This document shows positions 13,601 to 34,717 of a stretch of DNA of 44,077 nt, one piece after another. The stretch comes from a virus. The translations under genes and the position numbers were made by a program. The stretch lies in the UHGV virus genome UHGV-1969024. The stretch is one strand, 5' to 3'. The number at the start of each line of letters is the position of its first letter. Within the stretch, counting starts at the first letter, position 1. Below the pieces are notes generated by a model, which had not been told where the DNA came from, ran no database searches, and saw nothing but the letters and a program-made list of their open reading frames with translations.

Positions 13601-16600
13601 GGCATTTCAACAGTCAGACGACCGAGGGCTGGACCGGCAGCGCCGGCGTACCGGGTGTGTCCCGGGATGGCTGGTTACGCCCTGCGGACAGCGCCACCGA
13701 TCCGTACATTACCTCTCCCGGCGGTCTGGCTGTCGATGGTGCAGCGTACCGCTTCATCATGCTGCGCTTTCGTAAAACCGGCAAACCAGTCTGGGCGGGT
13801 GAGATCCGTTGGGTGTCTGCCGGCGAAAACTTTAATAACACGAAGCGATACATTGTTGCTGAGCCGGAATATGCCGATGGGGTGGCAACCCTGACGGTGC
13901 GTGATATTCCGTGGACAGGGAACATTGATCGTATTCGCCTGGACCTGACGAACCAGCAGGATGCCAGCAACTTTATCGAATTCGACTGGATCGCCGTTGG
14001 CCGGCCAGCACCCGGCGCCAGTACGGCGGCTCTGCAGGATGTGCGCAGTACGCTGAGTAACGCGCTGACCTCCGAAGCACAGGCACGCAGCACGCTGGCG
14101 GCGCAGATGCGTGGCTCCTATGATGGCAGCGATCTGGAGAAAGTCACCTCCGGGCTGCTATACCAGGAAAAAACGGCGCGCGTTACCGCCATCCAGGCGG
14201 AAGTTAAGGCCAGAGAGTCCCTTCAGACGCAGTTTAACGACAACAAAGCTGCTGTTTCTGGTGAACTGAGTTCTCTGACGACAGAGCAGCGCGCGCAGGC
14301 GAGCCGTATCGGTGGTCTGGAAACCAGCCTCGGGAAAAAAGCCGATGCGACCGCGCTGACGTCCCTGACGCAGAAAGTTGAGCAACAGGGCGCCACGCTG
14401 ACATCGCAGGGCGCCGCGTTAACATCACTCACTAACCGGGTGGGCCAGACGGAAACGGGCCTGGCTGGTACGAATGAGGCGCTGAGCGGGCTGCAGTCTG
14501 TTGTTACCCGTCAGGGCGACAGGATAACCAGCCAGGGTCAGTCCATCACAAAACTGACGAGCGATTTGGGCACGACAAATTCCGCGCTGGTGAAGAAAGC
14601 CGAAGCGGCTGCGGTCACTGCCTTAACGCAGCAGGTGGAGCAAAACGGGCGGGATATTCGCAGCAATACTGACAGTATCACCCGCCTGTCGAATCAGCTG
14701 GTCAATGGCCAGCCGAATAGCTGGTCCCGTCGGATCTATCCTGTGCAGCTGGCTAACGCCGTGACAGTCCCGTCATTCAGCGATATTCGCGCCGTGGCGC
14801 CAGTGGTCGTGGATGAGGTGGCCGACGCGACCAGACTGGACTTTACGTCCGCCGGGAGCTATTTGATCGCGCTGTATTCCTGCCAGGTGAAAGTGGCGGC
14901 CGATACCACCATCACAATGACGCCCGGTAACAGGGTTTTTGATGATACCGGTGCTGTATTTGTAAATGGCGTTCAGGTTGCCTGGGGAAACGCCAGCTGG
15001 ACTACCGTCAGTTTTGATCTGAAAGCCGGCTGGAACACAGTTGAGTTTCTGGTGAATCAGTGGGCTGGCCAGGCGTATATCAACCTGGGACTGAAGCTGT
15101 CAGACAAGGTTGCTGAGATGTACTCCGGTCTCGGTGTTTCCGCGCTGGCAAACGCAGCCGGCGTACTCAGCTCGAATGTCAGCCAGATTGGCAACGATGT
15201 GGTCAGCAATTCGCAGAGCATCACCCAGCTCCGGAATGCGCTGACGCAGACAGACGCGAATGTGGCCAGCAAAGCGGATCAGACGGCGATGAACTCCCTA
15301 ACCGGACGAGTGGAGAAGACGGAGTCCGGTCTGACGGCGGCGAACAGCAACATTACGTCGCTCAGCAGCTCTCTGAGCCAGCAATCCAAACGCGGCGCTA
15401 ATCTGCTTCCTGATGGCACTTTTGAAAGTTACGCGGTTGGTCACAATCTGGCGAATAACCGTGCCATCGTGACCACTGACGACTCGCATGGCGGCAATAA
15501 ATGCATTCGTGTGACGCGTCCGAATGACTACAATGCCAATGCAACTGACAACACTGACACCCACATTTTCAGCGGATTCCAGGTTCGCGATAACGCAGTC
15601 TTCTATATGGAATGCTGGGTTAAGCTGGATTCCAGGAGTACCGCTATGGCCGGGAACGTGCAGATTTCCGTCGGCTTATCGCTCCAGTATCAGGACAACT
15701 CCTGGCAGTGGCCGGCAGTTACCAAAGCGGCAAAGGATCTCTCTTCAACTCAATGGACGAAGGTTTCTGGTTACCTGAAATCAACGAAGAGCGGTATTAA
15801 GCAGGCAATGGTCAGGATTTCTATTCCTAACGTTAGCAGCGTTAAGGCGGGTAACTCATTCCTCATTGATGACCTGGTCATTACCGAAGTGACTGATGCC
15901 TACAATGCGCAAAGTACAGCAGATGCTAACGCTAATGCGATTTCGACACTGAACTCGACCGTATCCCAACAGGGCGGCCAGATCACCAGTCAGGGTAACA
16001 GCATCACTAAACTGATAAATGACCTGGCGAAGACTAATAATAACGTCAGCAATAAAGCAGACGCTAATGCTCTGACGGCACTGACCAACCGTGTTACCCA
16101 GACCGAAAAAGACATTAACTCAACGAGTTCTTCTGTCACGAATCTGAACAACAAGGTTGATGCAATTTCTGTCGGCGGTACAAACCTGATCAAGAACTCC
16201 GGCGATATGACCGGCTGGTCGAACGTTGTCAGCGATACGTATCGTGGTAACGCGGTAATTAGCACAACTGTAAAAGCCGGCTCCGGTTACAGGGATTTGC
16301 GGGAAATCACGCTTGAGTCGCCGCTCGATGCAGGGGAGTACGTTTACAGCTTCTATGCGAAAGGCGGCGTTGCTGGCCAGACGATGACGGCGTTCTTCTA
16401 CAATCCGAACACCACAACGTCTATCGAGACCAGCCAGGGTGCGAAAGGTAACAACACTGATGGTCGTGCGCAGTTCACGCTGACCACTTCATGGGCCCGC
16501 TATTGGGTTAAGTGGAAACAGACACCTACCACGGGCACCAAGCGCCTGATTCTGTGCCGTATCGAGAGCAATACCTCCAAAGACCAGACGGTGTACATCA

Positions 16601-19545
16601 ACAGTCCGAAGTTTGAGGTAGGTAACGTTGTTTCCGACTGGAACGAGTCTCCGTCTGATAGCGCCAGTGCGTCGGCTGTGGATTCGCTGACAACGAAAGT
16701 GAATCAGCAAGGCACTTCCATTAGCTCTATCGGAAATCGCACCACATCGTTGGAAAACAGGTTATCGACAGCTCAGAACAACATTGCCAGGAAGGCTGAT
16801 GCTTCTGCATTGCAGGATCTCCGGAACACGGTGACATCTCAGGGGGGCGATTTAACCGCGGCGAACAGTAGCATTACCAGCCTGCAGGCCTCGATGAACC
16901 GTCGCACTGTGTTTACTGTCACTGCACGGGGGAATGGCAACAGCGTAACTCCTGGGGTTTTTGATGAAAGCGGCAAAAACCTGTTTACCCCTGGTCGCAG
17001 CTGGGCACTGGTCACTTTTGCAAAACACAGCAACGGATCAACGGTGATTGCGACATCCAAAACATACGATGTCTTTGGCAGCGCGAATAATGGTGCCACG
17101 ATGTCGGCTGATATCGAGGCGTTGGCCAGTGGCACTTACGTTTGCGTCCTGACATTCGATGAGCCATCTGGCAACCGAGGTAAGATATTGTCTGCTCTGG
17201 AATCTCTTGGTGGTACATCCGAAGTCGTCAACTCCCTGCCGTATCGTGGTGCCTATATTCTCCTTGGCCGCAAAGGCATGAGGCCGGGCGATGGTCTGGA
17301 ACTGCGTGCGCCAACCGGTGGTGACGCCACTGCCCACATTTCGACCTCAGTCGAGTTTGTGAACGGGGTAATGATGGGACTGGGCGCCGCCGGCGGTGTG
17401 ATGATGAAGGCTGATGCGAACGCGTCGGCAATTACCACGCTCCAGAACACAGTGAAGGCCCAGGGGGGTAATATTGACTCCCTGAGTTCCTCGGTAACGG
17501 CGCTGGAGAACAGCCTCAGGTCGACAAACGATACGGTGAGTAAAAAGGCCGACACGTCCGCGGTGAGTTCACTGACCGGTCGCGTAAGCCAGGTGGAAAA
17601 CACCATCACCAGCCAGTCGCAGAGCATCACGTCGCTGACCAGCACCATCAATACCATCCGCACTCAGGGAGCTAATCCGTGGGTTGACGGTACGTTCGAA
17701 AGCTACGGAGATGGTCATGTGCTGGGCGGGGGCGGCACCGCCGTTGTGGTGGAGTCGCAGAAATTCACCGGCAATAAGAGCCTGCAGGTGAGCCGGGGAG
17801 CGAACAATAACGGCAACAGCGATAAACAGCTTGGGAGCTGGCAGTCAGTCCGTGAGGATGCGAAGTTCCGGTTTGAGTTCTGGGCCATGATGCCGGCGGA
17901 TCAGAAACCCTCCTCCGGGTGGACAACGCTGGTCGGTATCAACTCACTGAATGCTGCCGGTCAAAACTCCTGGCAGTCGGCGGTCACTGTCAGCGAAGCC
18001 GCTCTTGGTGCGCGTGATAAGTGGGTGAAATTTACGGGTATTGCCAGTAACAACGGGGGTGGTAGAACACGCGCGGTGGTCTGGATCTCCACCCGTGGCG
18101 CCTCCGGCAGCGGCACCCCCGGTTATTCGCTGTATATCGACGATCTGGTTATCACGGATGTTACCGATGCGAAAGCGGCACAGGATGCCTCTGACGTGAC
18201 GGCGAGTGCCGTAAGCGGTCTGACGGCTCGCGTAACGGATGCCGAAGGGAAAATCACCGCCCAGGCGCAGCAGCAGGCGGCACTGGCCACGAAAGTGGAT
18301 AATGCCAACTCCCGCGTCGATAACATGGCGAAGACGCTGAGCGACAGCCAGAACACACAGGCCAGTCTGAATACCTCGCTTCAGTCGCAGATTGACGCGC
18401 AGGCGGCCGCCAACATCAAAAACCAGACGACGCTGGACAACACGATTAAATCGGTGGCCAGTATCACCAGTACCCAGCAGACGCATGCAACGGCACTGGA
18501 GGCCCTGGCAACGCAGCAGACGACCCTGACATCCAGTGTCGGGGATCTCAGTGCTTCCGTTCAGAATACCGCCAAAACCGTGGCGGCTGTGAATGGTACG
18601 GTGAGTTCTCTGTGGTCGATGAAGGTTGAGACGGTTAACGGGAAGAAGGTTGGCGCGGGGATTACGCTGGGCAGCAATGGTGAAACGAGCGACATTATCC
18701 TTTATGCCGACCGCTTCTCGCTGTTTAACCGTAATAATGCGACGGCTGTTCCGGTGATGGTTGCCGAAGGCAATGAACTGTATATCGATACGGCACGTAT
18801 CAAAAACAGTTCCCTGACCTCAACCAAAATCGCGGACGGTTCCATCACGAACGCGAAGATCGGCAACGAGATCCGCTCGAATGACTTTGTTGACGGGTCA
18901 CGCGGCTGGCGTATCGCTAAGGATGGCTCTTCGCAGTTCAACAACGTGATCGTTCGCGGTGCGGTTTATGCGACTGACGGCTGGTTCCAGGGTACGGTAT
19001 ATGCGAACCACATCGAGGGCGACATCGGGTCATTTGCGATCAACATCGCTCAGCACCGCACGCGCAAGGTGCCGAAGGCTACATGGCAGTGGTTTGAGCT
19101 GGCCCGGTTCCGGCGGCAGAATTTCGACCAGGTGATCAATATTCGCGGTGGACTCCTCCAGACGGATAGCATCACTATCTACGGCGGCGCGAAACTCAGA
19201 GCGGGGATGTCCTACGCGCCAGGGGCTGACGGCGGACTGAATCCTGGCTATCTGTCGTATGCAATGCTTCTTCGTGGCACAGGCGCTACGTCTGGTGGCG
19301 GCAGTATGGAGCTAGGCATTGAGCTTATGTATGAAACAGGTGGAGCAACACGCCTGTTAACGGCGCAAGAGTCAATGAACGTAGACAACATGTCATTTGT
19401 CGTCCCTGCCGGTACTGGCGACGCTGTTCTGCGATATGGCTGTTACCTGGACCGTAACGGACAGATGGTATTAACCATCCTCTCAAGATTCGACGCCTTC
19501 GCCGCGCGCAATAACAACGTAATTAGAGCTGCATCATCTGCTTAA
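10609..19545 (+). CDS. J: Host specificity / central tail fibre protein J, giant (2978 aa), with a large internal modular insertion
   Basis: The N-terminal ~1000 aa are J-like. The C-terminal ~340 aa resemble the lambda J receptor-binding end (SLWSMKVETVNGKKVGAGITLGS...VMVAEGNELYIDTARI...). The middle ~1650 aa hold repeated coiled-coil-like units (...SQGNSITKL...KADANALTALTNRVTQTE...) interleaved with beta-sandwich modules, three of them CBM-like paralogues. Confidence 0.9.
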   Translation: MANNIIKGRKGGGSKQRTPTEQPDDLQSVAKAKILLALGEGEFAGGLTGKDIYLDGTPLENADGSQNFSGVSWEFRPGTQAQTYIQGIPGTENEISVGLEVSSKTAWTHTFTNTQLSAVRFRLKWPSLMKQEDDGDVVGNTVRYAIDLQTDGGAWQTVLETAVSGKTTTGYERSHRIDLPQACSTWTLRLRKISPDANSVKTGDVMTLQSYTEVIDAKLRYPNTALLYIEFDSSQFNGSIPQISCEPRGRVIRVPDNYNPETREYTGVWTGGFKWAWTDNPAWIYYDIVIADRFGLGNRLSSANISKWTLYQIAQYCDQLVPDGRGGDGMEPRYTCNVYVQERNDAYTVLRDFAAIFRGMTCWNGEQIVVLADMPRDVDFTYTRANIVGKPRYSSSSSQVRYTNALVSWSDPDNAYADAMEPAFIPELVSRYSFNQLEMTAIGCTRQSEAHRKGLWGILTNNKDRMVEIDVGLDGRIPQPGYIIALADELLAGRVNGGRISAVNGRVITLDRDVDAKPGDRLQLNLPSGISQSRTIQAVNGRRQITVTTAYSETPERECVWAIESDDLFLQQYRVTGVKENNDATLTITGVAHDPDKFARIDTGAIIDQRPVSVLPAGNQSPPDDIVITSRSVVNQGISVETMQVNWSAVSGAIAYEAQWRRNDGNWINVPRSSTTSFEVSGIYAGRYLVRVRAINAAEISSGWAYSEEKTLTGKVGEPLAPLALATRSLVHGVQVSWEFPTGSGDTLRTELQYSKNQDGSAPMPLSDVAYPGKSYQQMGLSMGAEFWYRARLVDRLGNESPWTGWVQGMASDNFDDYYENLTDAIKDTAAWEETQRTISETQEGIRNTQQELEQTAEELRQEAADQAKQVSQNIDASAKSITADVNQQIAVLSKSLADGDAALNAQIKTAENGLKQSLSQVNTTLTNAVKQETADRIADINAKAAQAADELLAATQGIEASIESLTQVMKSADENLAREMSSLAAGANIQFDSQVIWHFNSQTTEGWTGSAGVPGVSRDGWLRPADSATDPYITSPGGLAVDGAAYRFIMLRFRKTGKPVWAGEIRWVSAGENFNNTKRYIVAEPEYADGVATLTVRDIPWTGNIDRIRLDLTNQQDASNFIEFDWIAVGRPAPGASTAALQDVRSTLSNALTSEAQARSTLAAQMRGSYDGSDLEKVTSGLLYQEKTARVTAIQAEVKARESLQTQFNDNKAAVSGELSSLTTEQRAQASRIGGLETSLGKKADATALTSLTQKVEQQGATLTSQGAALTSLTNRVGQTETGLAGTNEALSGLQSVVTRQGDRITSQGQSITKLTSDLGTTNSALVKKAEAAAVTALTQQVEQNGRDIRSNTDSITRLSNQLVNGQPNSWSRRIYPVQLANAVTVPSFSDIRAVAPVVVDEVADATRLDFTSAGSYLIALYSCQVKVAADTTITMTPGNRVFDDTGAVFVNGVQVAWGNASWTTVSFDLKAGWNTVEFLVNQWAGQAYINLGLKLSDKVAEMYSGLGVSALANAAGVLSSNVSQIGNDVVSNSQSITQLRNALTQTDANVASKADQTAMNSLTGRVEKTESGLTAANSNITSLSSSLSQQSKRGANLLPDGTFESYAVGHNLANNRAIVTTDDSHGGNKCIRVTRPNDYNANATDNTDTHIFSGFQVRDNAVFYMECWVKLDSRSTAMAGNVQISVGLSLQYQDNSWQWPAVTKAAKDLSSTQWTKVSGYLKSTKSGIKQAMVRISIPNVSSVKAGNSFLIDDLVITEVTDAYNAQSTADANANAISTLNSTVSQQGGQITSQGNSITKLINDLAKTNNNVSNKADANALTALTNRVTQTEKDINSTSSSVTNLNNKVDAISVGGTNLIKNSGDMTGWSNVVSDTYRGNAVISTTVKAGSGYRDLREITLESPLDAGEYVYSFYAKGGVAGQTMTAFFYNPNTTTSIETSQGAKGNNTDGRAQFTLTTSWARYWVKWKQTPTTGTKRLILCRIESNTSKDQTVYINSPKFEVGNVVSDWNESPSDSASASAVDSLTTKVNQQGTSISSIGNRTTSLENRLSTAQNNIARKADASALQDLRNTVTSQGGDLTAANSSITSLQASMNRRTVFTVTARGNGNSVTPGVFDESGKNLFTPGRSWALVTFAKHSNGSTVIATSKTYDVFGSANNGATMSADIEALASGTYVCVLTFDEPSGNRGKILSALESLGGTSEVVNSLPYRGAYILLGRKGMRPGDGLELRAPTGGDATAHISTSVEFVNGVMMGLGAAGGVMMKADANASAITTLQNTVKAQGGNIDSLSSSVTALENSLRSTNDTVSKKADTSAVSSLTGRVSQVENTITSQSQSITSLTSTINTIRTQGANPWVDGTFESYGDGHVLGGGGTAVVVESQKFTGNKSLQVSRGANNNGNSDKQLGSWQSVREDAKFRFEFWAMMPADQKPSSGWTTLVGINSLNAAGQNSWQSAVTVSEAALGARDKWVKFTGIASNNGGGRTRAVVWISTRGASGSGTPGYSLYIDDLVITDVTDAKAAQDASDVTASAVSGLTARVTDAEGKITAQAQQQAALATKVDNANSRVDNMAKTLSDSQNTQASLNTSLQSQIDAQAAANIKNQTTLDNTIKSVASITSTQQTHATALEALATQQTTLTSSVGDLSASVQNTAKTVAAVNGTVSSLWSMKVETVNGKKVGAGITLGSNGETSDIILYADRFSLFNRNNATAVPVMVAEGNELYIDTARIKNSSLTSTKIADGSITNAKIGNEIRSNDFVDGSRGWRIAKDGSSQFNNVIVRGAVYATDGWFQGTVYANHIEGDIGSFAINIAQHRTRKVPKATWQWFELARFRRQNFDQVINIRGGLLQTDSITIYGGAKLRAGMSYAPGADGGLNPGYLSYAMLLRGTGATSGGGSMELGIELMYETGGATRLLTAQESMNVDNMSFVVPAGTGDAVLRYGCYLDRNGQMVLTILSRFDAFAARNNNVIRAASSA

Positions 19546-19550
19546 ATCAT

Positions 19551-19577
19551 GGCCCCGCAAGGGGCCTTTTCTTTTTC
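19551..19577 (+). terminator. Rho-independent terminator after J
   Basis: ggccccgcaaggggcc hairpin plus a T-rich run. Confidence 0.55.
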
Positions 19578-19607
19578 CAGGGAAGAGCATCCAGGAGGAA
19601 CTTTATT

Positions 19608-21128
19608 ATGGCGATGTATGAAGTCGGCACCGTCACGGGTGCAGCGTCGCAAGCACGGGTGACAGGTGCGACAACAAAATGGTCACAGGTGGCGCTGGGG
19701 ATACTGCCCGGGTCGATTCTGGTGGTCTACCGCAGCGGTAGTGCTGACCTGTATGCGATCAAATCTGTGGACAGCGACACGCAACTGACGCTGACCCGGA
19801 ATATCACCACCGCATTTTCCGGTGCCTCTTACGGCATTATTACAGCTGAAACCGCCAGCACCTCGTCGTTTGCTAACCAGCTGGCCAGCGCGTTTGCATT
19901 CTGGCGTAGTGTAGTGGAGGGCTGGTCGATGGCCCTGACCGGCAGCGGCAATATTACCCTGACTGACCCGATCACAGGAAAGCAGGTGACCGTGCCGGCG
20001 ATAGCCGGGATGGCGAAAGCATCGGATCTTAACGCGCTGGCAAAACTCACCGGAGGAAACAACCTCGCCGGCTCGCAAATTATAACTAGCGATAATTCCG
20101 GTTTTATTTTGGGCAGGAACTCAGATCTGGCTCTGCTTAAAAAACAAGGGCAAGGCGGGACAATTGCCGTCGGCTCGGGAACACCGTTCAGGGTTCAGCG
20201 TTCAAGAGCGACCACTGTATCACCGTCAGAAACCTATGATGACATCCTCGTTATTGGCACCAATAACCAGACGACGTTGCCCGGAGATTTGGTTGTCGGT
20301 GGTGGTTTCGATAATACGGCAAAGGGCAAGCTGTATTCCCAGGCGTTAGAGCTGTCGATGGGCACTCCGTACATCGATTTTCACCATAACAAAAGTGCTA
20401 ACGACTACACCGCACGCCTCATCACCACCTCTGCAGACCAGCTGAGTGTGCAGGGAAGCCATCTACGGGTAGACAGAGACCTGCGGGTGGGGCAAGCGGC
20501 CGACATCGGCAGCTGGATACAGTGTCGCTATGACTGTGTGTCGCAGCGGAGCGACTTCGGTTCCCCTGCCATTGGCTCGTTAGTTTCCGGGGGCAGAGTT
20601 CGGTCCCGCATATCAGGGCGCGGAGGAAACGGGGACACATCAGGAGCGTGGGGGGGATTCTACCTTGAGGAGTACGTAGGCACTGAGCACCGGATCGTTC
20701 TGTACATGGATGGGTTCGGCAGGACGGACGCGTGGACCTTCCGCTCTGGCGGTGCCGTCTCCACCCCGAAGGGGGATGTCATGACCACTGGATCAGACGT
20801 GCGGCTGAAAGAGGGTTTTACGGAAGCTCCTCAAAATGCGCTGCAGCGCGTTGGAAGGTTAGGGGTGTGCGAGTATCAGATGAAAGGAGAAAACCGGCGA
20901 CGCAGGGGATTTATCGCGCAGCAGGCTGACACCGTGGACACAACTTACACCTTCATGGGATGTGAACAGGAGATCGATGGGGAAAAGTTTCAGGTAATGA
21001 ACGTGGACTATGTAGCCATCATTGCTGATCTTGTTTCGTCAGTGCAGGAGCTTAGAAAGCAGCTTTCTGATTTAATGGAAATGAATAAACAAATTAATTG
21101 TCACAGTACCGGTGCGCTTAATCAATAG
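19608..21128 (+). CDS. Side tail fibre protein with C-terminal intramolecular chaperone (peptidase S74-type) domain
   Basis: 506 aa. Strong RBS caggagga. C-terminal GSDVRLKEGF...GFIAQQ...VNVDYVAIIADL matches the S-D-x-R-x-K autoproteolytic chaperone motif of endosialidase and T5 pb1-type fibres. Confidence 0.8.
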   Translation: MAMYEVGTVTGAASQARVTGATTKWSQVALGILPGSILVVYRSGSADLYAIKSVDSDTQLTLTRNITTAFSGASYGIITAETASTSSFANQLASAFAFWRSVVEGWSMALTGSGNITLTDPITGKQVTVPAIAGMAKASDLNALAKLTGGNNLAGSQIITSDNSGFILGRNSDLALLKKQGQGGTIAVGSGTPFRVQRSRATTVSPSETYDDILVIGTNNQTTLPGDLVVGGGFDNTAKGKLYSQALELSMGTPYIDFHHNKSANDYTARLITTSADQLSVQGSHLRVDRDLRVGQAADIGSWIQCRYDCVSQRSDFGSPAIGSLVSGGRVRSRISGRGGNGDTSGAWGGFYLEEYVGTEHRIVLYMDGFGRTDAWTFRSGGAVSTPKGDVMTTGSDVRLKEGFTEAPQNALQRVGRLGVCEYQMKGENRRRRGFIAQQADTVDTTYTFMGCEQEIDGEKFQVMNVDYVAIIADLVSSVQELRKQLSDLMEMNKQINCHSTGALNQ

Positions 21129-21200
21129 CTATAAAAAGCATTGATCAAATTTCTGAAAAATAATACTGTGCATAAATATAGTTATTATGAGAGTGAAATT

Positions 21201-21431
21201 ATGCCGCGGAACTCAGATTTCGAAAAGGCCTGGCGTCACGCAATAGTTATTGAGCCAAATGGTCGCCGTGCAGTGACAACCTCCGGGTTTATTCGTGAAT
21301 TCGCAAAAGTTAACTGGATATGGTCACCTCGCCAAGCTAACGAGTGGATAGAGCATTATGTGACGGCCTTCCGTGATGTCTCAACGCAGGAAGGCGATGA
21401 GCGAACGTTCCAGCTATACAACCCGGACTGA
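21201..21431 (+). CDS. Hypothetical protein (76 aa)
   Basis: ORF from the ATG after RBS gagagtgaaatt. The upstream part of the track ORF is AT-rich and promoter-like. No recognised motif. Confidence 0.4.
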   Translation: MPRNSDFEKAWRHAIVIEPNGRRAVTTSGFIREFAKVNWIWSPRQANEWIEHYVTAFRDVSTQEGDERTFQLYNPD

Positions 21432-21766
21432 GGGGTGTAACCGCGTTTGTTCCGTGTTCAGCATCATTCTATGTAGAGGGGGCCTAACTTTCGATAAACT
21501 CTTTTACTCCGGTCTTATCACACGGATTGTTCAACAGATAGAAAATGGATATTTTATCGTGGAATTCTCAGTAAACAAAGAAAGCATGTACCGCACTAAT
21601 TTAACAGGGCAGCAGAAATGAATTTGTAAAAATTACGGAGAAAGTGCTTGTGCCAAGATATGGTAAGGTGTTGGACGATGTGGCAGTTGCAAATATTTTT
21701 CAATAATAGGTTTAAATTCTCCCATGATTCATGTATGGTACAAAAAAATATTGATGAGAAAAAAAC

Positions 21767-23638
21767 ATGGACCCATTACTTAATCAAATAGTTATTAGTG
21801 GTACAGGCGAAGCGGTAAAAGTCATGACCGAGAAACTCCTCTCTTCTAGATGGCTTAAAGGGACAGAGGAGGCCATTGGGATAATTGAACAATTAGACCA
21901 ACCTGAAATAAGGTCTAAATATATAGAGAAACATGTGTCTAATGCGCTACGCATGAGAACGCTCCACCAACGAGAACATGATATCTTGCTTGATGATATC
22001 TACTTCCCGTTAACAATTGTAAACGTATCAAATAAAGATGAATTCATAGTTGACAATGAGTGCATCATAACACACTCACGGATTTTAAATATTATTGGTA
22101 TCGCAGGCCAAGGTAAAAGCACCATACTAAGAAAGTTATTTCAAAATGAAATTAGATTAAATAACAGAATCCCTTTTTTTATAGAGTTAAGAAGAATTGA
22201 AAAAGGGACATTGATAGAATATTTTAAATCAACACTTGAGTCACTCGGTGTTGATATAAATCGTACCAACAATCATGTTGAATTGCTTCTACAATCCGGA
22301 AAGATTGTTTTAATGCTTGATGGGTTCGATGAAGTAAAAGCTAACTCAAGGTACGAAATGCTTTCTCAGATAACAGAGTTGAATATACGATATAATTGCC
22401 CCGTTATAGTTACAAGCCGTCCAGAAACTGAAGTGTGCAGAGAGACATCCATTAGTAACCTATTAGTTAAAGAGTTGGACGAGGAAAGTCAACTAGGAAT
22501 ATTAAAAGTATTATCAAATCAATCTGAATTTGTTGAATTATCAAGTGTAATTAGAGACAACCCACAACTCAAAGAAACTCTCAAAACACCCATCTTGATA
22601 AACCTTTTATATGTATGCTATCCATATTGGGATGAGTTACCCAGTAACGTTGTTGAGTTTTATAACAAGCTTTACATTACACTTTATCTTAAACATGATA
22701 GGATGAAATCTTGGGCTCGTGAACGTAAATCAACGCTTAACACAGATGATTCGCTATGGTGTTTTTCTGCCTTGTGCTATTTTTCGATGAGAGATGAAGT
22801 TTTTGAATTTGACACATTATCACTTACCAAATATGCGAAAAAATCCTTAAGCGCTGCTAGTTTCGATGTAAAACAATACGAAGCGTTTGTAGATGATATC
22901 ATTAATATTACTTGTTTAATTCAGCAGGATGGTTTAGACCGGTATGTATTTCTCCATAAGTCAGTACAGGAATATCATGCCGCTTATACAATAAGCAACC
23001 TTCCCAAAGAAATAAAAAAACAATTTTACGATTCGATTACAGAAAACTTATTGTCTAATGATAAATTCGATAATGTTTTGACTTTTTTACATTACATAGA
23101 TAAAGATGCCTTCCAGAAATATATATCCATCGAATATTTCGAAAGGTTAGGCCTGGCGGCTATTGCAGAAGCTGAACTGAATAAAGTGTGCGATTTTATT
23201 ATTAGTAAAATAAAAAAAATGTGCCTATATGCTGAGAAAACAGAAAACGAGAAAGTTACATGGCAATTGGTTGCGTTAATCTCTTCAGAGATTGGAGTTG
23301 ACCTCTTGCCACTGATGAGAGGAGGGCAGCGCCTACATGATGAATTTTTAGATGAATCGATACTCGAAGCCGCGGCTGGAAGTTTTCATATTTCTGAACT
23401 CGAAAAGTATGAATATTCCTATGTTGTTAATCCGATAACCAAAAAAAATTCTATAACTAAGTTTAGAGTAAATCTTGCCAGTTTCATGATAGCAAATAAT
23501 TTACTTTTAGATGTCGCTGAAAGATTAAAGAAAGTTACATCTGAATACTATCATTGTGTTTACGCCCCATTAATTGAAGAGAGGAAAAAGAAGGCTCATG
23601 CATTATATAAAGAATTTGAAATAAAGCGCGAGCCCTGA
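21767..23638 (+). CDS. NACHT-domain STAND NTPase (bacterial NLR-like); candidate anti-phage defence protein
   Basis: Walker A GIAGQGKST (aa 111-119). Walker B IVLMLDGFDE (aa 180-189), the hhhhDGFDE NACHT signature. TSR motif at aa 216-218. C-terminal ~400 aa are helical. Gene is very AT-rich compared with the phage backbone. Confidence 0.75.
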   Translation: MDPLLNQIVISGTGEAVKVMTEKLLSSRWLKGTEEAIGIIEQLDQPEIRSKYIEKHVSNALRMRTLHQREHDILLDDIYFPLTIVNVSNKDEFIVDNECIITHSRILNIIGIAGQGKSTILRKLFQNEIRLNNRIPFFIELRRIEKGTLIEYFKSTLESLGVDINRTNNHVELLLQSGKIVLMLDGFDEVKANSRYEMLSQITELNIRYNCPVIVTSRPETEVCRETSISNLLVKELDEESQLGILKVLSNQSEFVELSSVIRDNPQLKETLKTPILINLLYVCYPYWDELPSNVVEFYNKLYITLYLKHDRMKSWARERKSTLNTDDSLWCFSALCYFSMRDEVFEFDTLSLTKYAKKSLSAASFDVKQYEAFVDDIINITCLIQQDGLDRYVFLHKSVQEYHAAYTISNLPKEIKKQFYDSITENLLSNDKFDNVLTFLHYIDKDAFQKYISIEYFERLGLAAIAEAELNKVCDFIISKIKKMCLYAEKTENEKVTWQLVALISSEIGVDLLPLMRGGQRLHDEFLDESILEAAAGSFHISELEKYEYSYVVNPITKKNSITKFRVNLASFMIANNLLLDVAERLKKVTSEYYHCVYAPLIEERKKKAHALYKEFEIKREP

Positions 23639-23851
23639 ATAAAAGCTACTCTCAAAGGATTTTAGGCAGGATAAATTGGCGCAGCTCATTATTCTGCCTT
23701 TTGATTATATGTATTAATTGCTAATTTATTATCCTGTGATTAATGTTATAACCTTGCATTCATATTTATTGCGTCTAGATCCATTGGTAAGTACAACTTG
23801 GGTTTTTGTTATGTTCGCTATTGCCACTTTGCGGACAGCTTACTGATTGAA

Positions 23852-23872
23852 ATGTCCGCATGGAGCGGACAT
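23852..23872. terminator. Hairpin between convergent genes (possible bidirectional terminator)
   Basis: atgtccgc-atgga-gcggacat, an 8-bp stem in AT-rich flanks. Confidence 0.4.
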
Positions 23873-23952
23873 TGATATTATTAGAACTTGGATTATCTAC
23901 AAATTAGACTTATAGGTATTTCTGATATCCCTCTATCTATACTTTGTGAATA

Positions 23953-25413
23953 TTAATCTATGCTATCAAGAAGGTCAAAAATATTGTCTGGCTGCAATGC
24001 CCATCTGTACGCAGGGTGTACCTCCCAATCATAGCCGAAATCAGCAAACTTGCTGGAAAGATATCTATTTTGCTCGAAGTATTTTCTGTCTATTGTTCCG
24101 TCTGGCAGAACTTTTCTTGCTGTAATAAAACCTATTTTATATAAGAATGCTGCTAATTCTTTTGTTGATAGAGTTTTATTGTTTCTTCCTTTGAATATGC
24201 CTTGTTGTTCTATTGATTTTATTTTTTCCAGCAAGGAGTTCGTAGAGTAGTTATAATTCTCTGATGCTTTAAGTTGTCGTTTTGAGGGTTTCATTCCCAG
24301 TATTAAGCGTTCGACATCTGGTAATTCAGATACAAATTCATTAATTGTATCTTGTAATCTGCCTTGAGAATATTCATCTAGTATTGCCTGCAAATGTTTC
24401 GTCTTAATTATTGGGGATTCATCATCCTGAGCCTGCCTAGCTGCGAGGGTTAAAAGCTTTACTAGGTCTCGAGGTCTTTTTCTAATCAATGACATTAAAA
24501 TTTTATGCATGGGTGCATTAGACCACTTACCTCTTCCTGTAAATCTATCTTCAATTATATCTGTTAAGTAATTCATCAAGTCTGATTGTTTTTTTTGTAG
24601 AAGTTCTTTATCACTTACACCATAATGTCCATTATATGTTGCAACCCTTTTTATCAGAAGTGCAAATATTTCATGGTTTGACCAGTCGAACCAAATAACA
24701 GAGCCTTCAGTTTTATCGGTAGACTCATCCGATGTTCTTGAAAGGAAATAAACATCTGATCTCAAGTTTACCCTGAAATACACACCACGATTTTCACTGG
24801 AAATATCTCTCACAGCATTAAGTAGTGCGGAGATTCTCTGTATGTCTTCTAATCTTCCTTGCCATCCTCGGTCAAGATCATCTATATAAATTGAAACTTT
24901 GTTTGTGTCTAAAAAATTACGTATTGCCTTGGCTTTTATTTCGGAGTTTATCCTGGATAAATCAACTTTATCTTTGATATTGATTGTTTCACTCAAAACA
25001 TCTAATAGAGTTACACCCGCCCCCAATGCTTTATGTATTATGCTTTTGTCCTCGTCGAATAAACCGAAGTAGGTCATAATCTTATTAGTTATGATTTCGT
25101 TTATTCCTAATTTCCAACGAGTAATGAGGGATAAAAAATCCTCATCTTTACCGCCAATACCTGCTATATCATCTGGTTTTATAATGAAAGTTAACCGCCC
25201 ATTATTTCTTTCATCATCCATGCCAATTTGAAATAAAGCCGACTTACCGATTCCCTTATGCCCAACCAATATTCTTAAAGGAATGTCAACAATGACTTTT
25301 GAATAAATTTTTCCTTTAAAATAGTATTCTTTTAGTCGATCTATTTCTTCACTTTCAGCCGCCTCTTGACCAAAAAGGCGTTGTATGTTTAGTTCTGAAA
25401 AATCCATCTCCAA
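23953..25413 (-). CDS. P-loop NTPase, KAP-family-like (Walker B DDLDR); candidate defence/exclusion protein
   Basis: 486 aa. Walker A GHKGIGKS (aa 51-58). Walker B SIYIDDLDRGW (aa 174-184). AT-rich. Convergent with the NACHT gene. Confidence 0.5.
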   Translation of the reverse strand: MEMDFSELNIQRLFGQEAAESEEIDRLKEYYFKGKIYSKVIVDIPLRILVGHKGIGKSALFQIGMDDERNNGRLTFIIKPDDIAGIGGKDEDFLSLITRWKLGINEIITNKIMTYFGLFDEDKSIIHKALGAGVTLLDVLSETINIKDKVDLSRINSEIKAKAIRNFLDTNKVSIYIDDLDRGWQGRLEDIQRISALLNAVRDISSENRGVYFRVNLRSDVYFLSRTSDESTDKTEGSVIWFDWSNHEIFALLIKRVATYNGHYGVSDKELLQKKQSDLMNYLTDIIEDRFTGRGKWSNAPMHKILMSLIRKRPRDLVKLLTLAARQAQDDESPIIKTKHLQAILDEYSQGRLQDTINEFVSELPDVERLILGMKPSKRQLKASENYNYSTNSLLEKIKSIEQQGIFKGRNNKTLSTKELAAFLYKIGFITARKVLPDGTIDRKYFEQNRYLSSKFADFGYDWEVHPAYRWALQPDNIFDLLDSID

Positions 25414-26160
25414 CCCTCTTCAATAAGTAACTGTTAGTACATTACATAAAATATCAAATACATTACAACATAAATATACTATAACACTAGAATTTTCATA
25501 GGCGAAGTATGAAGCCTAAATGTCAGTTGCGATCTTTCTCACAAAAGCTACACCCGTTACGTAACTAATGGCACTTGCCCTGCTGTCTGTATAGAAGGAA
25601 CCGTCACCACCATAGTCTGTATCATTGAGGAAGGAATTAAGGTGCGAATAAATTTTCCTTATGGAACTCAAGTGTCTAGTCTTAATCTGACTTCGTAGGT
25701 GACGAGATACGTTCAGTTTTATCAGAAACTGACACAAAAAAATGAGCGGGTAGTTTTTATTATCTAGCGCTAAAAAATATAATTAACTTTCAGAGATATA
25801 ATTACCTTAAAAGACTCTACAGCTGGTACAAGCCATTTAACCTCCTTTATAACATAATCCAGTCCAGCAGATTCAGAAAAACGATCATTGTTGTATAAGA
25901 TGAAGTATTCAATAACAACGGTTTACGCTGTTTGCGCAGGACTTCTACATAATCCAAAGCGAACGTTAGAGGTGAGGTTGTTGCGGAAATTGAGACCTAC
26001 TATAAAAAACTGCTATGACGAGTTTCCAACAAATTTATGGACAATTCCTTCATAATTAAACTGTTTAATAACCTATAACCATTTGATAACTATAGCTAAG
26101 CTAAAAAAGTTTGTTATGAAATTCGATCATAAGCCTTTGATTATGACATTAAAAGCGCAC

Positions 26161-26217
26161 GATTTAAAATCCCTCGGCGTTCGCGCTGTGTGGGTTCAAG
26201 TCCCACTCCGGGTACCA
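26161..26217 (+). other. attP core: 3-prime half of a tRNA-Leu (UAA-type, class II) gene from anticodon loop to CCA
   Basis: gatttaaaatccctcggcgttcgcgctgtgtgggttcaagtcccactccgggtacca. Long variable arm and GGTTCAAGTCC T-arm ending ACCA. No 5-prime half upstream. Integrase gene is adjacent. Confidence 0.65.
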
Positions 26218-26256
26218 TTGGGAAATATAGAATAATCAAAGCAATAAGCAGTGTCG

Positions 26257-26283
26257 TGAAACCACCTACGGGTGGTTTTTTTG
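26257..26283 (+). terminator. Rho-independent terminator after the tRNA fragment (reconstitutes the tRNA gene 3-prime end on integration)
   Basis: aaaccacctacgggtggttt hairpin plus a T run. Confidence 0.6.
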
Positions 26284-26308
26284 TTCCAAAACCACCCATT
26301 TCATAATA

Positions 26309-27343
26309 TCACTTCATAATATTTTTCCTTTCCACCTGTCCATCTACAACCGGAACTACCGCAATTTTTCTGTCATACCGGGCAGTTTGCTCAACGTTCT
26401 TATGCCCTGATATTGCCTGTTTCTCGTACAGATTACCCTGGAGGTCAGATATCCCTTTTGCTTTGAGATCGTGGAACGTGAAGTCAAAGGAAAGGTGAGG
26501 GTACTGTTCCTGCGCCTCAATTTTTGCTTTTCTCCAGCGGCTGTTAAAGCCGTCTCGTGTGTATTTTCCGCCTGCTGGCTGGTGGATGACATACAGACTG
26601 CTCATGCCAGCGTTAAGAGGTAAATTTTTTGCCAACTCAAGTGCAGCGTTCAAGCGCGGGCTCCATGCTTTTATCTGAGCAACAGACGTTTTACTTTGCT
26701 TTATCAGGATACCTTCTTCCATAAATTGGCTTTTTTTCATCTCCAGTACATCGTTTTGTCTGGCACAGCAGAGGTAAGCGAGTTCCATTGCGACTTTCAC
26801 AATGTCTGGCGCTACAGAGTACAGCGCCTGGTATTCCTCATTGGTTATGTAGCGATCTCGGCTAACTTCTTTATACTGGCGGACACCCTTTGTGGGGTTC
26901 CCTTTAACGAACCCGCGTTCATAAGCCCAGCGATACACGCGAGACATGAAAGCTTTTTCTCTGTTAGCTTGTGTCCTGCTTTTTATTCCCCGCTTGTCCA
27001 TGTAACGCCGGACATGTTCAGGTTTGATAGCGTCCGGCGGCATTTTCCCAAATACATCAATAATTTTTTTTGAGTACTTTCTATAGTCCTTTTGGGTTTC
27101 CAGAGCCAGCTCGAAAAATTCACCAGATTTAAAGAAGCGTTCGATAAGTCCTTCCATCATGGAGTCGTCCGGGCGATCGTTCATTAGCGCTTCCCATGCA
27201 CTCCATACCTGAGCTTGTGTACTGGTTTTGTCGCAGAGGCGAATGTTGCCGCCTCCTTTAGGATGATATTCATATGCTGATCTCCCGAGGTAAACCCTCG
27301 GTGGCATCCAGGCATCGTCTTTATTTTTTCTTGGGCGTGGCAT
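26309..27343 (-). CDS. int: Tyrosine integrase (phage integrase family)
   Basis: 344 aa. C-terminal HDLKAKGISD...GHKNVEQTARYDRK carries the catalytic His and Tyr. Adjacent to the tRNA-derived att core. Confidence 0.9.
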   Translation of the reverse strand: MPRPRKNKDDAWMPPRVYLGRSAYEYHPKGGGNIRLCDKTSTQAQVWSAWEALMNDRPDDSMMEGLIERFFKSGEFFELALETQKDYRKYSKKIIDVFGKMPPDAIKPEHVRRYMDKRGIKSRTQANREKAFMSRVYRWAYERGFVKGNPTKGVRQYKEVSRDRYITNEEYQALYSVAPDIVKVAMELAYLCCARQNDVLEMKKSQFMEEGILIKQSKTSVAQIKAWSPRLNAALELAKNLPLNAGMSSLYVIHQPAGGKYTRDGFNSRWRKAKIEAQEQYPHLSFDFTFHDLKAKGISDLQGNLYEKQAISGHKNVEQTARYDRKIAVVPVVDGQVERKNIMK

Positions 27344-29257: not shown

Positions 29258-29914
29258 TCAGAGGTCCGTGACAACCTGCCTGACAACACCAACGATCTTA
29301 CAGTTGCCATTTACTTCCATCACACGATAGTTCGGATTAAGAGGAACCAAATATTTTATAGGTCCATCAATTACAAATTTTTTCAGCGTTGCCTCTGCTG
29401 AGCCCATCACTTGGGCAACGACAATCTTACCGTTTACTTCGTAAATACTGCCGTAGTCTGGGTCAACAACAACGATTGAGCCCTCAGGTATGCTTGGGGC
29501 ACCGTTAGGGTTAGTCATTGAATCACCACGTACTTTCAGAGCGAATCCTTCATCACAAAGATTTGCGGTTGTGTAAATCCATTCTGAAACATCATTTTCG
29601 GTAACTGGCGCGCCGCTTTCGGTCCATTCACCAGCCTGAACCCAAGATAAGACTGGAATCCTTTTCACGCCAAAACGTTCGGTAGGCTTATAGGTTGGTG
29701 CCTCCGATACAGGATCTCCAATACCATGAATTATCCATTGAGGATTCGTTTTTAACGCAGCAGCAAGCGCCTGAAGGTTAGAACCCCCTGGCTCATAATC
29801 TCCTGACTCCCACCCAGTAACAGTCACACGGTTAACGCCCACTAATTTGGCTAAGACCGCTTGGGTTAGTTTCAGCTCTTTACGTCTTGCACGGATGCGT
29901 TCATTCATTTTCAT
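29258..29914 (-). CDS. cI: CI-type repressor (HTH_XRE + S24 LexA-like peptidase)
   Basis: Start taken as MKMNERIRARRKELKLTQAVLAKLVGVNRVTVTGWE (HTH). C-terminal GDSM Ser and LKKF Lys dyad. The ORF-track N-terminal extension runs through the operator region and is rejected. Confidence 0.85.
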   Translation of the reverse strand: MKMNERIRARRKELKLTQAVLAKLVGVNRVTVTGWESGDYEPGGSNLQALAAALKTNPQWIIHGIGDPVSEAPTYKPTERFGVKRIPVLSWVQAGEWTESGAPVTENDVSEWIYTTANLCDEGFALKVRGDSMTNPNGAPSIPEGSIVVVDPDYGSIYEVNGKIVVAQVMGSAEATLKKFVIDGPIKYLVPLNPNYRVMEVNGNCKIVGVVRQVVTDL

Positions 29915-29976
29915 GTAGGCAATCCTACCATTTTGTAATGTAGGAATCCTTGACCTTTGAGTGTAAGATATCCTAC
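29915..29976. promoter_or_regulatory. Divergent cI-cro operator/promoter region with three related 14-bp sites
   Basis: GTAGGCAATCCTAC (29915..29928), GTAGGAATCCT (29940..29950) and GTAAGATATCCTAC (29963..29976). A repeated TCCTACCATTTG lies beside sites 1 and 3. Confidence 0.5.
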
Positions 29977-30013
29977 CATTTGTTTGTCTGCTTCCCTTAC
30001 ATATGAGGAAAAA

Positions 30014-34703: not shown

Positions 34704-34717
34704 CCATAAAAATAAGA

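What the first reader, a model, noticed from the sequence alone, without database searches (positions are those of the whole stretch)
21767..23638. NACHT-type STAND NTPase with a short N-terminus, in an AT-rich moron island next to attP
GIAGQGKST, hhhhDGFDE and a downstream TSR motif at NACHT spacing mark a bacterial NLR-like NTPase. The ~100 N-terminal residues carry no recognisable effector domain, and the ~400-aa helical C-terminus is unassigned. The gene sits in the classic defence hotspot between the tail-fibre genes and att. Effector-less short bacterial NACHT proteins are poorly understood.
Basis: partly seen in the sequence, partly recalled or inferred. Interest (0 to 1): 0.7.

Follow-up and report, generated by a model that had tools for sequence, protein, structure and literature searches.

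The report
Prophage-borne bNACHT01/11-type antiphage NLR-like gene
The gene is real and intact, but it belongs to an already described and tested family of bacterial NLR-like antiphage proteins (clade 14, bNACHT01/02/11/12), carried here as cargo of a Klebsiella temperate phage, so it is a new member of a known kind rather than a mystery protein.

Summary
It passes the Pfam NACHT threshold. It aligns collinearly from residue 1 to 447 with the tested antiphage protein bNACHT11 (40% identity, E 2e-115), and it matches bNACHT02, 12 and 01 too. It starts with MDP, the D2/P3 motif shown to be essential for bNACHT11 killing, so the "effector-less" N-terminus is the known short effector. The "unassigned helical C-terminus" has two parts. 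Residues about 236-440 are the rest of the NACHT module. Residues 441-623 are a divergent SNaCT sensor domain (hhalign probability 98% to Pfam-SNaCT1-bearing relatives). SNaCT evolves faster than the NACHT part (54% against 82-84% identity among close orthologs). The gene is a single-gene, low-GC cassette. In other genera it sits in P2-like prophage hotspots or alone in the chromosome. Here it lies in variable cargo between the tail fibre genes and attP (tRNA-Leu) of a Klebsiella lambdoid phage. The identical protein is already in NCBI for Klebsiella. By homology, the likely mechanism is: SNaCT binds phage proteins, ATP-dependent oligomerisation follows, and clustered N-termini kill the cell (abortive infection). 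Nothing here was tested experimentally. Interest is modest.

The parts
21767..23638 (+). Complete gene for a 623-aa clade-14 bacterial NACHT protein (bNACHT01/02/11/12 type), stop codon included
   Evidence: ORF. Pfam NACHT 44.7 bits. BLASTP 40% identity over 1-447 to the bNACHT11-like P0226, E 2e-115. Identical to the NCBI Klebsiella protein P0121.
21767..21952 (+). N-terminal extension, aa 1-62: MDPLL motif followed by three predicted helices (3-26, 34-43, 46-61). Inferred effector.
   Evidence: D2, P3, G12 and G14 align to the bNACHT11-like protein. Position 2 is D/E in 70 of 77 relatives and position 3 is P in 41 of 77. Helices come from the AF2 model. There is no Pfam hit even at E<=10. 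The effector role is taken from Robbins et al. and Ibarlosa et al..
21953..23086 (+). NACHT module, aa 63-440: lead-in strands, nucleotide-binding domain, helical domain and winged-helix domain
   Evidence: Pfam NACHT covers aa 107-240. Foldseek aligns 437-532 columns to NLRC4 4kxf, NOD2 and NLRP3. Invariant columns are listed.
22097..22123 (+). Walker A motif GIAGQGKST (aa 111-119; K117 corresponds to bNACHT11 K115)
   Evidence: G111, A113, G114, Q115, K117, S118 and T119 are invariant in 77 sequences.
22304..22333 (+). Walker B motif IVLMLDGFDE (aa 180-189), containing the NACHT-specific D[GAS]hDE signature DGFDE
   Evidence: D185, G186, D188 and E189 are invariant. The signature definition comes from Kibby et al..
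22412..22420 (+). TSR motif (aa 216-218). R218 corresponds to bNACHT11 R214, which contacts ATP.
   Evidence: R218 is invariant. The role of R214 is described.
22949..22972 (+). Winged-helix motif FLHKSVQE (aa 395-402) with the conserved histidine H397
   Evidence: It aligns to NLRC4 FFHKSFQE. H397, S399 and E402 are invariant.
23087..23635 (+). SNaCT-type C-terminal sensor domain, aa 441-623, alpha/beta, fast-evolving
   Evidence: hhalign probability 98.1, E 9e-14 over 174 columns against relatives with a Pfam SNaCT1 hit. That group matches the bNACHT11 group at probability 94.5. The direct Pfam SNaCT1 hit is only 12 bits. Strands 486-491, 496-501, 539-541, 550-553 and 565-569 are in the model. 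Identity is 54% against 82-84% for the NACHT part in close orthologs.
21640..26140 (.). Context: AT-rich variable cargo island of the phage (approximate limits), absent from the related Klebsiella phage Kp4882-3
   Evidence: GC profile. BLAST of the window against OK490462.1 ends at 21638.
23851..23873 (+). Context: terminator-like hairpin between the two convergent genes. The count of such sites is not above chance.
23953..25413 (-). Context, not part of the system: independent neighbouring cassette, an Sll1717-family P-loop ATPase
   Evidence: NCBIfam NF047389, 203 bits. It occurs alone in an E. coli P2-like prophage hotspot. It is absent next to NACHT orthologs in Serratia, Enterobacter and Providencia. 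Nucleotide homology blocks are separate.
26161..26298 (.). Context: attP region matching the 3' part of tRNA-Leu and its downstream sequence. Identity to the K. pneumoniae chromosome ends at 26285.
   Evidence: ARAGORN finds no complete tRNA.
26309..27343 (-). Context: tyrosine integrase
   Evidence: Pfam Phage_integrase and Phage_int_M.

Best explanation
The gene encodes a single-protein, prophage-carried antiphage sensor of the clade-14 bacterial NACHT family (NACHT plus SNaCT; bNACHT01/02/11/12 type). The proposed mechanism is inferred by homology to bNACHT11 and was not tested here. In the lysogen the protein would sit as an ADP/ATP-gated closed monomer. During superinfection, its fast-evolving C-terminal SNaCT domain would bind one or several proteins of the incoming phage. 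ATP-dependent oligomerisation through the NACHT module (K117, D185/E189, R218) would build a wheel-like complex. The clustered N-terminal MDP-motif helices would then damage the inner membrane or osmotic homeostasis and kill the cell before the phage matures (abortive infection). This would protect the lysogen population and with it the prophage. Shown here: family membership, domain limits, motif conservation, single-gene mobility, and position as variable phage cargo. Inferred: defence activity, the triggers, the oligomer, and the mode of killing.
For: NACHT identity: Pfam scores 44.7 bits against a cut-off of 26.7. The DGFDE signature, K117, R218 and the FLHKSVQE histidine motif are invariant in 77 relatives. 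PDB sequence and fold matches are to NLRC4, NOD2, NLRP3 and NAIP. Clade-14 membership: identity is 41.4% over residues 1-398 to bNACHT11 and bNACHT02, 38% to bNACHT12 and 37% to bNACHT01, all of which defend E. coli against phage. Identity is 40% over 1-447 to the full-length bNACHT11-like P0226. A reverse search with bNACHT11 retrieves the window's subfamily at E about 1e-93 to 1e-97. Effector motif: MDPLL, with D2, P3, G12 and G14 aligned to bNACHT11. D2A and P3A abolish bNACHT11 defence and killing. SNaCT: hhalign probability is 98.1 to SNaCT1-bearing relatives. SNaCT identity is 54% against 82-84% for the NACHT part among close orthologs, which matches the diversification described by Kibby et al.. 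Single-gene cassette: nucleotide homology in Serratia, Enterobacter and Providencia is limited to the ORF plus 20-70 nt. GC is 32-35% inside 37-60% GC flanks, and the neighbours differ each time. Accessory cargo: the island is absent from the related phage Kp4882-3, and there is no close homolog in 50,697 phage records. The model resembles closed NLRC4 4kxf (TMq 0.48-0.53) more than active NLRC4 (0.33-0.34).
Against: There are no experimental data for this protein or for its 57-86% identical subfamily. Its SNaCT domain cannot be aligned pairwise to that of bNACHT11. The direct profile comparison is weak (probability 7), so homology is only transitive through the SNaCT1 group. Triggers and binding mode may therefore differ. 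The Pfam SNaCT1 model itself does not reach significance (12 bits). The N-terminal 45 residues share only 17 identities with bNACHT11. How this region kills is unresolved even for bNACHT11. No promoter signal above chance was found, so expression from the prophage is assumed. No formal phylogeny was built.
Confidence: 0.78

Rival explanations
1. The protein is a clade-14 bNACHT sensor, but its N-terminal three-helix region acts as an adaptor that recruits a separate host- or phage-encoded executioner, or signals in another way, rather than damaging the membrane directly.
For: The N-terminus is not strongly hydrophobic, and the biophysical mode of action is unresolved for bNACHT11. Only 17 of the first 45 residues are identical to bNACHT11. 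The AF2 model gives a confident small helical bundle (pLDDT 85-94 for residues 11-60), which could be a protein-binding module.
Against: The gene moves as a single ORF among unrelated contexts and genera. Kibby et al. scored bNACHT01, 02, 11 and 12 as one-gene operons that work in E. coli. The D2/P3 motif is shared with the Bell/HeLo-type membrane-targeting domains discussed.
Confidence: 0.1
2. The NACHT gene and the convergent Sll1717-family ATPase gene form one two-gene defence system.
For: They are adjacent in the same AT-rich island. They co-occur in all eight K. pneumoniae loci examined. Both are STAND or Cdc6-like ATPases.
Against: They are convergently transcribed with a 314-bp gap. NACHT orthologs in Serratia, Enterobacter and Providencia lack the ATPase. 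The ATPase occurs alone in an E. coli P2-like prophage hotspot. The nucleotide homology blocks are separate. The eight Klebsiella loci are one and the same prophage, so their co-occurrence is not independent evidence.
Confidence: 0.04
3. The gene is non-functional or decaying cargo, or it serves a phage-internal role such as lysis timing or lysogeny control rather than defence.
For: Some Klebsiella strains carry split or truncated copies (503 + 123 aa, 195 aa). No promoter signal above chance was found.
Against: The copy in this window is full length, and all catalytic and motif residues are invariant across 77 relatives. The identical protein is found on 188 contigs. The gene is absent from related phages, so it is not needed for the phage life cycle. 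It also occurs outside prophages.
Confidence: 0.05

Closest known systems
bNACHT11 (WP_114260439.1, Klebsiella pneumoniae; clade 14, NACHT+SNaCT)
   Same: The two proteins are collinear from Met1 to about residue 447 at 40-41% identity. They share the MDP start with D2, P3, G12 and G14, the Walker A lysine (K115/K117), the ATP-contacting arginine (R214/R218), similar length (639 vs 623 aa), a single-gene organisation, and an NLRC4-like fold as top structural match.
   Different: The SNaCT domains are not alignable pairwise and are related only through an intermediate profile. The residues that bind activators in bNACHT11 (S518, I549, I553) and the C-terminal docking tail (633-639...KEILGF) therefore cannot be mapped with confidence. 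The window protein ends ...ALYKEFEIKREP. Triggers are probably different. This copy is carried by a lambdoid Klebsiella phage.
[quoted passage not shown]
   Same: Identity is 37-41% over the first about 400 residues. The architecture is the same, NACHT plus SNaCT, and each is a one-gene operon. A Walker A lysine is needed in bNACHT01.
   Different: bNACHT01 and bNACHT12 start MDI/MDL rather than MDP. Their phage spectra (T4, T5, T6, MS2, T7) were measured in E. coli, and no spectrum is known for the window protein.
Mammalian NLRC4, NAIP, NOD2 and NLRP3 (NACHT NLRs)
   Same: These are the best solved-structure matches by sequence (E 2e-5) and by fold (E 2.6e-13, up to 532 aligned columns). The D[GAS]hDE signature and the FxHxSxQE histidine motif are shared.
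   Different: Identity is only 13-19%. The window protein has no LRR sensor and no CARD or PYD effector. SNaCT replaces the repeats, and a roughly 60-aa helical extension replaces the death-fold domain.
Bell / Babybell / HeLo-type N-terminal 'MEPIS' motif domains (Bab of E. coli ECOR25, Avast2, fungal HELLP)
   Same: They share an acidic residue followed by proline right after Met1, then a glycine-containing first helix. This motif was reported as shared between these domains and bNACHT02, 11 and 23.
   Different: The similarity is confined to about 15 residues. No fold comparison of the N-terminal region alone could be run here, so membership of that superfamily is not established.

Membership tests
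NACHT clade of STAND NTPases | Walker A P-loop GxxGxGK[ST] | tested here: met
   GIAGQGKST at aa 111-119, invariant in 77 relatives.
NACHT clade of STAND NTPases | Walker B with the D[GAS]hDE signature that separates NACHT from other STANDs (definition quoted) | tested here: met
   D185-G-F-D-E189. D185, G186, D188 and E189 are invariant.
NACHT clade of STAND NTPases | Profile match above the curated threshold | tested here: met
   Pfam PF05729 scores 44.7 bits against 26.7. NB-ARC (20.7 against 23.5) and the nSTAND models fall below their cut-offs.
NACHT clade of STAND NTPases | C-terminal helical and winged-helix extension with the conserved histidine motif | tested here: met
   FLHKSVQE at 395-402 aligns to NLRC4 FFHKSFQE. 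The predicted fold aligns over 437-532 columns to NLRC4, NOD2 and NLRP3. This rests on a predicted structure, not a solved one.
NACHT clade of STAND NTPases | NTP binding or hydrolysis required for function | not testable with these tools
   This needs K117A and R218A mutants and biochemistry.
Clade 14 bNACHT (bNACHT01/02/11/12; NACHT+SNaCT) | Full-length collinear homology to experimentally tested members | tested here: met
   Identity is 37-41% over residues 1-398, E 2e-89 to 7e-109, and 40% over 1-447 to P0226. The reverse search retrieves the window's subfamily.
Clade 14 bNACHT (bNACHT01/02/11/12; NACHT+SNaCT) | Short N-terminal extension beginning with the MDPIT-type motif (D2, P3) | tested here: met
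   MDPLL, with D2, P3, G12 and G14 aligned. Position 2 is D/E in 70 of 77 and position 3 is P in 41 of 77.
Clade 14 bNACHT (bNACHT01/02/11/12; NACHT+SNaCT) | Short C-terminal SNaCT domain without repeat superstructure | tested here: met
   Profile-profile probability is 98.1 (E 9e-14, 174 of 184 columns) to the Pfam-SNaCT1-positive group. There are no repeats in the model. Caveat: the direct Pfam SNaCT1 hit is only 12.3 bits against a cut-off of 27, and the direct comparison to the bNACHT11 SNaCT group is not significant. The bNACHT11-like protein itself also lacks a Pfam SNaCT1 hit.
Clade 14 bNACHT (bNACHT01/02/11/12; NACHT+SNaCT) | SNaCT evolves faster than the NACHT module | tested here: met
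   In 15 close orthologs, identity is 53.8% for SNaCT against 81.8% for the nucleotide-binding domain (NBD, aa 105-235) and 84.2% for the remaining helical/winged-helix part of the NACHT module (aa 236-440). In the representative search most matches stop near residue 460.
Clade 14 bNACHT (bNACHT01/02/11/12; NACHT+SNaCT) | Placement inside clade 14 in a NACHT phylogeny | not tested
   No tree was built. The accessions of the window's cluster are not in Kibby Table S1, which lists representatives.
Clade 14 bNACHT (bNACHT01/02/11/12; NACHT+SNaCT) | Phage defence, activator-induced heptamerisation, plasmolysis-type death | not testable with these tools
   These are known only for bNACHT11 and its relatives.
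Known defence-system HMM sets (PADLOC-DB 2.0.0; NCBIfam EruA) | Significant match to a curated defence model | tested here: not met
   The window protein only reaches mad8 at E 0.019. The control shows this is uninformative, because the bNACHT11-like P0226 also gets no hit. NCBIfam EruA scores 18.7 bits against a cut-off of 1000, so it is not an EruA.

The most novel reading that the evidence does not exclude
This subfamily's SNaCT domain is so diverged from bNACHT11's that the two cannot be aligned directly, and the gene is carried by a temperate phage. It may therefore recognise a different set of triggers from Klebsiella phages while staying blind to the structural and accessory proteins of its own carrier phage. 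That would make it a natural case of self/non-self tuning in a promiscuous sensor of the beta-augmentation type, and a prophage-encoded determinant of phage-therapy failure in K. pneumoniae.
Probability: 0.3. Interest if true: 0.5.

Novelty: new member of a known kind. Interest (0 to 1): 0.27.

Why it matters
The practical value is in annotation and in Klebsiella phage biology. The exact protein occurs in many K. pneumoniae genomes (188 contigs for the identical sequence) as cargo of a lambdoid prophage. PADLOC-DB 2.0.0 has no model that detects it. It is therefore a likely but uncharted contributor to phage resistance in a priority pathogen. It also shows that clade-14 bNACHT genes travel as single-ORF cassettes between lambdoid and P2-like prophage hotspots and chromosomal sites. 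It does not open a new mechanistic question beyond those already posed for bNACHT11: which triggers this SNaCT variant senses, and how the MDP-motif N-terminus kills.

Tried and rejected
PADLOC-DB scan of the NACHT protein found no meaningful hit. A control with the bNACHT11-like protein also gave no hit, so this result is uninformative rather than negative.

NCBIfam gave only a far sub-threshold EruA match.

I looked for the bNACHT11 cryo-EM entry 9ORF by sequence and by fold. It is in neither PDB copy, so no direct structural superposition of the SNaCT domains was possible.

The direct hhalign of the window-type C-terminus against the bNACHT11-type C-terminus was not significant (probability 7). 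Homology had to be shown through the SNaCT1 group.

A Pfam scan of the isolated N-terminal 105 residues found nothing at E<=10.

The promoter and terminator scan of 21000-26400 gave counts at or below shuffled expectation, so no claim about expression is made.

ARAGORN found no complete tRNA in the window. The att site is a tRNA-Leu fragment, identified by BLAST.

Megablast of the island against E. coli genomes and phage records found no NACHT homolog at the DNA level. tblastn against phages found only distant hits at 25-29% identity.

A full-text search for 'Sll1717' returned no papers.

The two-gene-system idea with the neighbouring ATPase was rejected on context evidence.
Full report
**Observation**

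The window holds an ATG-initiated ORF at 21767..23638 on the + strand, encoding 623 aa.
- GIAGQGKST at aa 111-119.
- IVLMLDGFDE, with LDGFDE at aa 184-189.
- TSRP at aa 216-219.

The surrounding 21-26 kb has GC of 0.34-0.40, against about 0.52 for the rest of the window. Upstream lie a 2978-aa J-like tail tip protein (10609-19545) and a 506-aa fibre with an S74 chaperone domain (19608-21128). Downstream lie a second AT-rich gene on the opposite strand (23953-25413) and a tyrosine integrase (26309-27343, -).

The window is 99.4% identical to a K. pneumoniae chromosome (locus L001) from 19551 to 26285 and then diverges. There the chromosome continues with a DHDPS-family gene, then genes whose Pfam domains (SEC-C, Trp_Tyr_perm, ferritin) suggest yecA, tyrP and ftnA. 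The segment 26161-26298 matches E. coli tRNA-Leu. The window is therefore the circular or excised form of a Klebsiella lambdoid temperate phage, and attP lies just before the integrase gene. Other parts of the window are 90-96% identical to Klebsiella phages.

**What the protein is: the NACHT module**

- Pfam NACHT scores 44.7 bits against a gathering score of 26.7. NB-ARC and the nSTAND models stay below their thresholds.
- The Walker B region carries DGFDE. This is the D[GAS]hDE signature that Kibby et al. give as the mark separating NACHT from other STAND NTPases.
- The nearest solved-structure sequences are NLRC4. That alignment includes the winged-helix motif FLHKSVQE against FFHKSFQE.
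- An AlphaFold2 model built on 77 sequences is confident (pLDDT 87.8, pTM 0.85).
- Its best Foldseek matches in the PDB are NLRC4, NOD2, NLRP3, NLRP9 and NAIP (E down to 2.6e-13, up to 532 aligned columns).
- The fit is better to autoinhibited NLRC4 4kxf (TMq 0.48-0.53) than to activated NLRC4 (0.33-0.34).

**Placement in a known, tested family (clade 14)**

[quoted passage not shown] That name comes from Kibby et al. (bioRxiv 10.1101/2022.07.19.500537). They defined clade 14 as short bacterial NACHT proteins with a fast-diversifying SNaCT domain and no fused classical effector. They also showed that bNACHT01, 02, 11 and 12 protect E. coli from phages as one-gene systems.

I used the first about 400 residues printed in their Table S2. 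The window protein aligns from residue 1:
- 41.4% identity to bNACHT11 (E 7e-109).
- 41.4% to bNACHT02.
- 38% to bNACHT12.
- 37% to bNACHT01.
- Only 25% to bNACHT04, which Kibby's Table S1 also places in clade 14 but lists as NACHT without a SNaCT domain.

A search with the bNACHT11 fragment returned a 639-aa protein that is 99% identical to it (P0226). It also retrieved the window's own subfamily at E about 1e-93 to 1e-97. Full-length BLASTP of the window protein against P0226 gives 40% identity over residues 1-447 (E 2e-115) and nothing beyond that point.

**The N-terminus**

However, the protein begins MDPLL. D2, P3, G12 and G14 align with the same residues of bNACHT11. Among 77 relatives, position 2 is D/E in 70 and position 3 is P in 41.

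Robbins et al. (bioRxiv 10.1101/2024.12.17.629029) reported the following for bNACHT11:
- The roughly 45-residue N-terminal extension has the consensus MDPIT.
- It is required for defence, and D2A and P3A abolish defence.
- Activation leads to plasmolysis-type cell death.

Ibarlosa et al. (bioRxiv 10.1101/2024.11.07.622273) link this motif to the "MEPIS" start of Bell/HeLo-type membrane-targeting domains and of Avast2. In the model, residues 3-61 form three confident helices. The N-terminus is therefore best read as the known short effector of this clade. That role is inferred by homology.

**The C-terminus**

Residues 236-440 belong to the NACHT module, as the helical and winged-helix parts, so they are not unassigned. 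Residues 441-623 are alpha/beta.

- Pfam SNaCT1 does not reach significance on this segment (12.3 bits).
- A profile of the C-termini of the 16 closest sequences matches a profile of the C-termini of 22 SNaCT1-positive relatives over 174 of 184 columns (hhalign probability 98.1, E 9e-14).
- The SNaCT1 group in turn matches the bNACHT11 group (probability 94.5, E 8e-8).
- The direct comparison of the window group to the bNACHT11 group is not significant (probability 7).

The domain is thus a SNaCT-type domain related to that of bNACHT11 only transitively. Among 15 close orthologs, identity to the window protein is 82% in the nucleotide-binding domain, 84% in the helical/winged-helix part and 54% in SNaCT. 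In an exhaustive search of 1.84 billion representatives, 693 clusters match at E<=1e-30. They are mostly 580-650 aa long, and most alignments end near residue 460. This is the diversification pattern described for clade 14.

**Context and mobility**

- The identical protein (P0121) is in NCBI as "NACHT domain-containing protein [Klebsiella]" on 188 contigs.
- In eight K. pneumoniae loci it sits in the same prophage end as in the window.
- The 82%-identical Serratia ortholog is a lone gene between LysR-type and LacI-type regulator genes.
- The 75%-identical Enterobacter ortholog lies at the Ogr/gpD end of a P2-like prophage beside an IS element.
- The 77%-identical Providencia ortholog lies in the gpA-portal hotspot of a P2-like prophage, next to a reverse-transcriptase gene.
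- Nucleotide similarity in these loci is limited to the ORF plus 20-70 nt. The ORF has 32-35% GC inside flanks of 37-60% GC.
- The related phage Kp4882-3 shares the small ORF after the tail fibre but lacks the island.
- None of 50,697 phage records has a close homolog.

The gene is therefore a single-ORF mobile cassette and variable phage cargo.

**The neighbouring gene**

The gene at 23953-25413 (-) belongs to the Sll1717 family of P-loop ATPases (NCBIfam, 203 bits). It is convergent with the NACHT gene. It is absent beside the other NACHT orthologs. In E. coli it occurs alone, at 86% nucleotide identity, in the P2-like hotspot between the tail fibre assembly and sheath genes. The two genes are independent cassettes.

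**Mechanism**

Shown here: membership, domain map, conserved catalytic and motif residues, single-gene mobility, and cargo status.

Inferred from bNACHT11:
1. SNaCT binds one or several proteins of an infecting phage.
2. ATP-bound NACHT modules assemble a ring.
3. Clustered MDP-motif N-termini cause membrane or osmotic collapse and abortive infection.

The SNaCT sequence is very different from that of bNACHT11, so the triggers and perhaps the binding mode are open.

**Rival explanations**

- An adaptor role for the N-terminus: about 0.10.
- A two-gene system with the ATPase: about 0.04.
- Decay or a non-defence role: about 0.05.

**Novelty and verdict**

The protein is a new, untested member, in a distinct subfamily with a divergent sensor domain, of a described and experimentally characterised family. 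Interest is modest at 0.27. The main value is for annotation and for Klebsiella phage resistance.

Noticed in passing
window 23953-25413 (-): This is a 486-aa Sll1717-family P-loop ATPase (NCBIfam NF047389, 203 bits; no Pfam family; phrog_22717, function unknown). It is about 60% identical across distant Proteobacteria such as Nitrosomonas, Neisseria, Pseudomonas and Vibrio. The AF2 model (pLDDT 83.8) resembles Cdc6/Orc1-type AAA+ proteins with a winged helix, and also the defence ATPases BrxC and RdrA. It occurs alone in the E. coli P2-like prophage hotspot between the tail-fibre assembly and sheath genes. No paper mentioning 'Sll1717' was found. It looks like an uncharacterised single-gene defence candidate and may be more novel than the NACHT gene.
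   Followed up: partly
window 34251-35650 (-): A second AT-rich island (GC 0.37-0.39) lies among the genes between the integrase and the lysozyme gene. It holds a 310-aa DUF6731 protein (phrog_7651) and a 150-aa protein (phrog_8552). Both are of unknown function and neither has a PADLOC hit. It may be another moron or defence cassette.
   Followed up: partly
window 21141-21431 (+): A small ORF sits directly after the tail fibre gene (phrog_3893, function unknown). It is conserved at 74-84% nucleotide identity in Klebsiella phages and in E. coli records. Several of those E. coli matches are annotated next to S24-peptidase or DNA polymerase V genes. It marks the left edge of the variable island.
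   Followed up: no
window 10609-19545 (+): The J-like tail tip protein is very long at 2978 aa (Pfam GpJ FNIII, Phage-tail_3, ILEI and Phage_Tail_Tip in the Klebsiella copies). Length variants of 2938, 2978 and 3738 aa occur in otherwise near-identical K. pneumoniae prophages.
   Followed up: no
window 26161-26298, and L001 12519: attP overlaps the 3' part of tRNA-Leu, and no complete tRNA is present in the window. Identity to the K. pneumoniae chromosome ends at 26285. The window is therefore the excised or circular permutation of the prophage, with the terminase and portal genes probably near its right end and tail genes in its first half.
   Followed up: yes
relatives of the window protein (cluster of P0001): Some Klebsiella strains carry split or truncated copies of this NACHT gene (503 + 123 aa, 195 aa, 562 aa), which shows occasional inactivation.
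   Followed up: no
window 29258-30142 (-): The CI-type repressor (HTH_3 plus Peptidase_S24) is 294 aa long. In this ORF call, which starts at TTG, about 80 residues precede the HTH domain, more than I would expect for this type of repressor. The start codon may be mis-called.
   Followed up: no
PADLOC-DB 2.0.0 control: Neither the window protein nor the bNACHT11-like P0226 nor a SNaCT1-bearing Vibrio relative matches any PADLOC 2.0.0 model. This library therefore cannot detect clade-14 bNACHT genes.
   Followed up: yes
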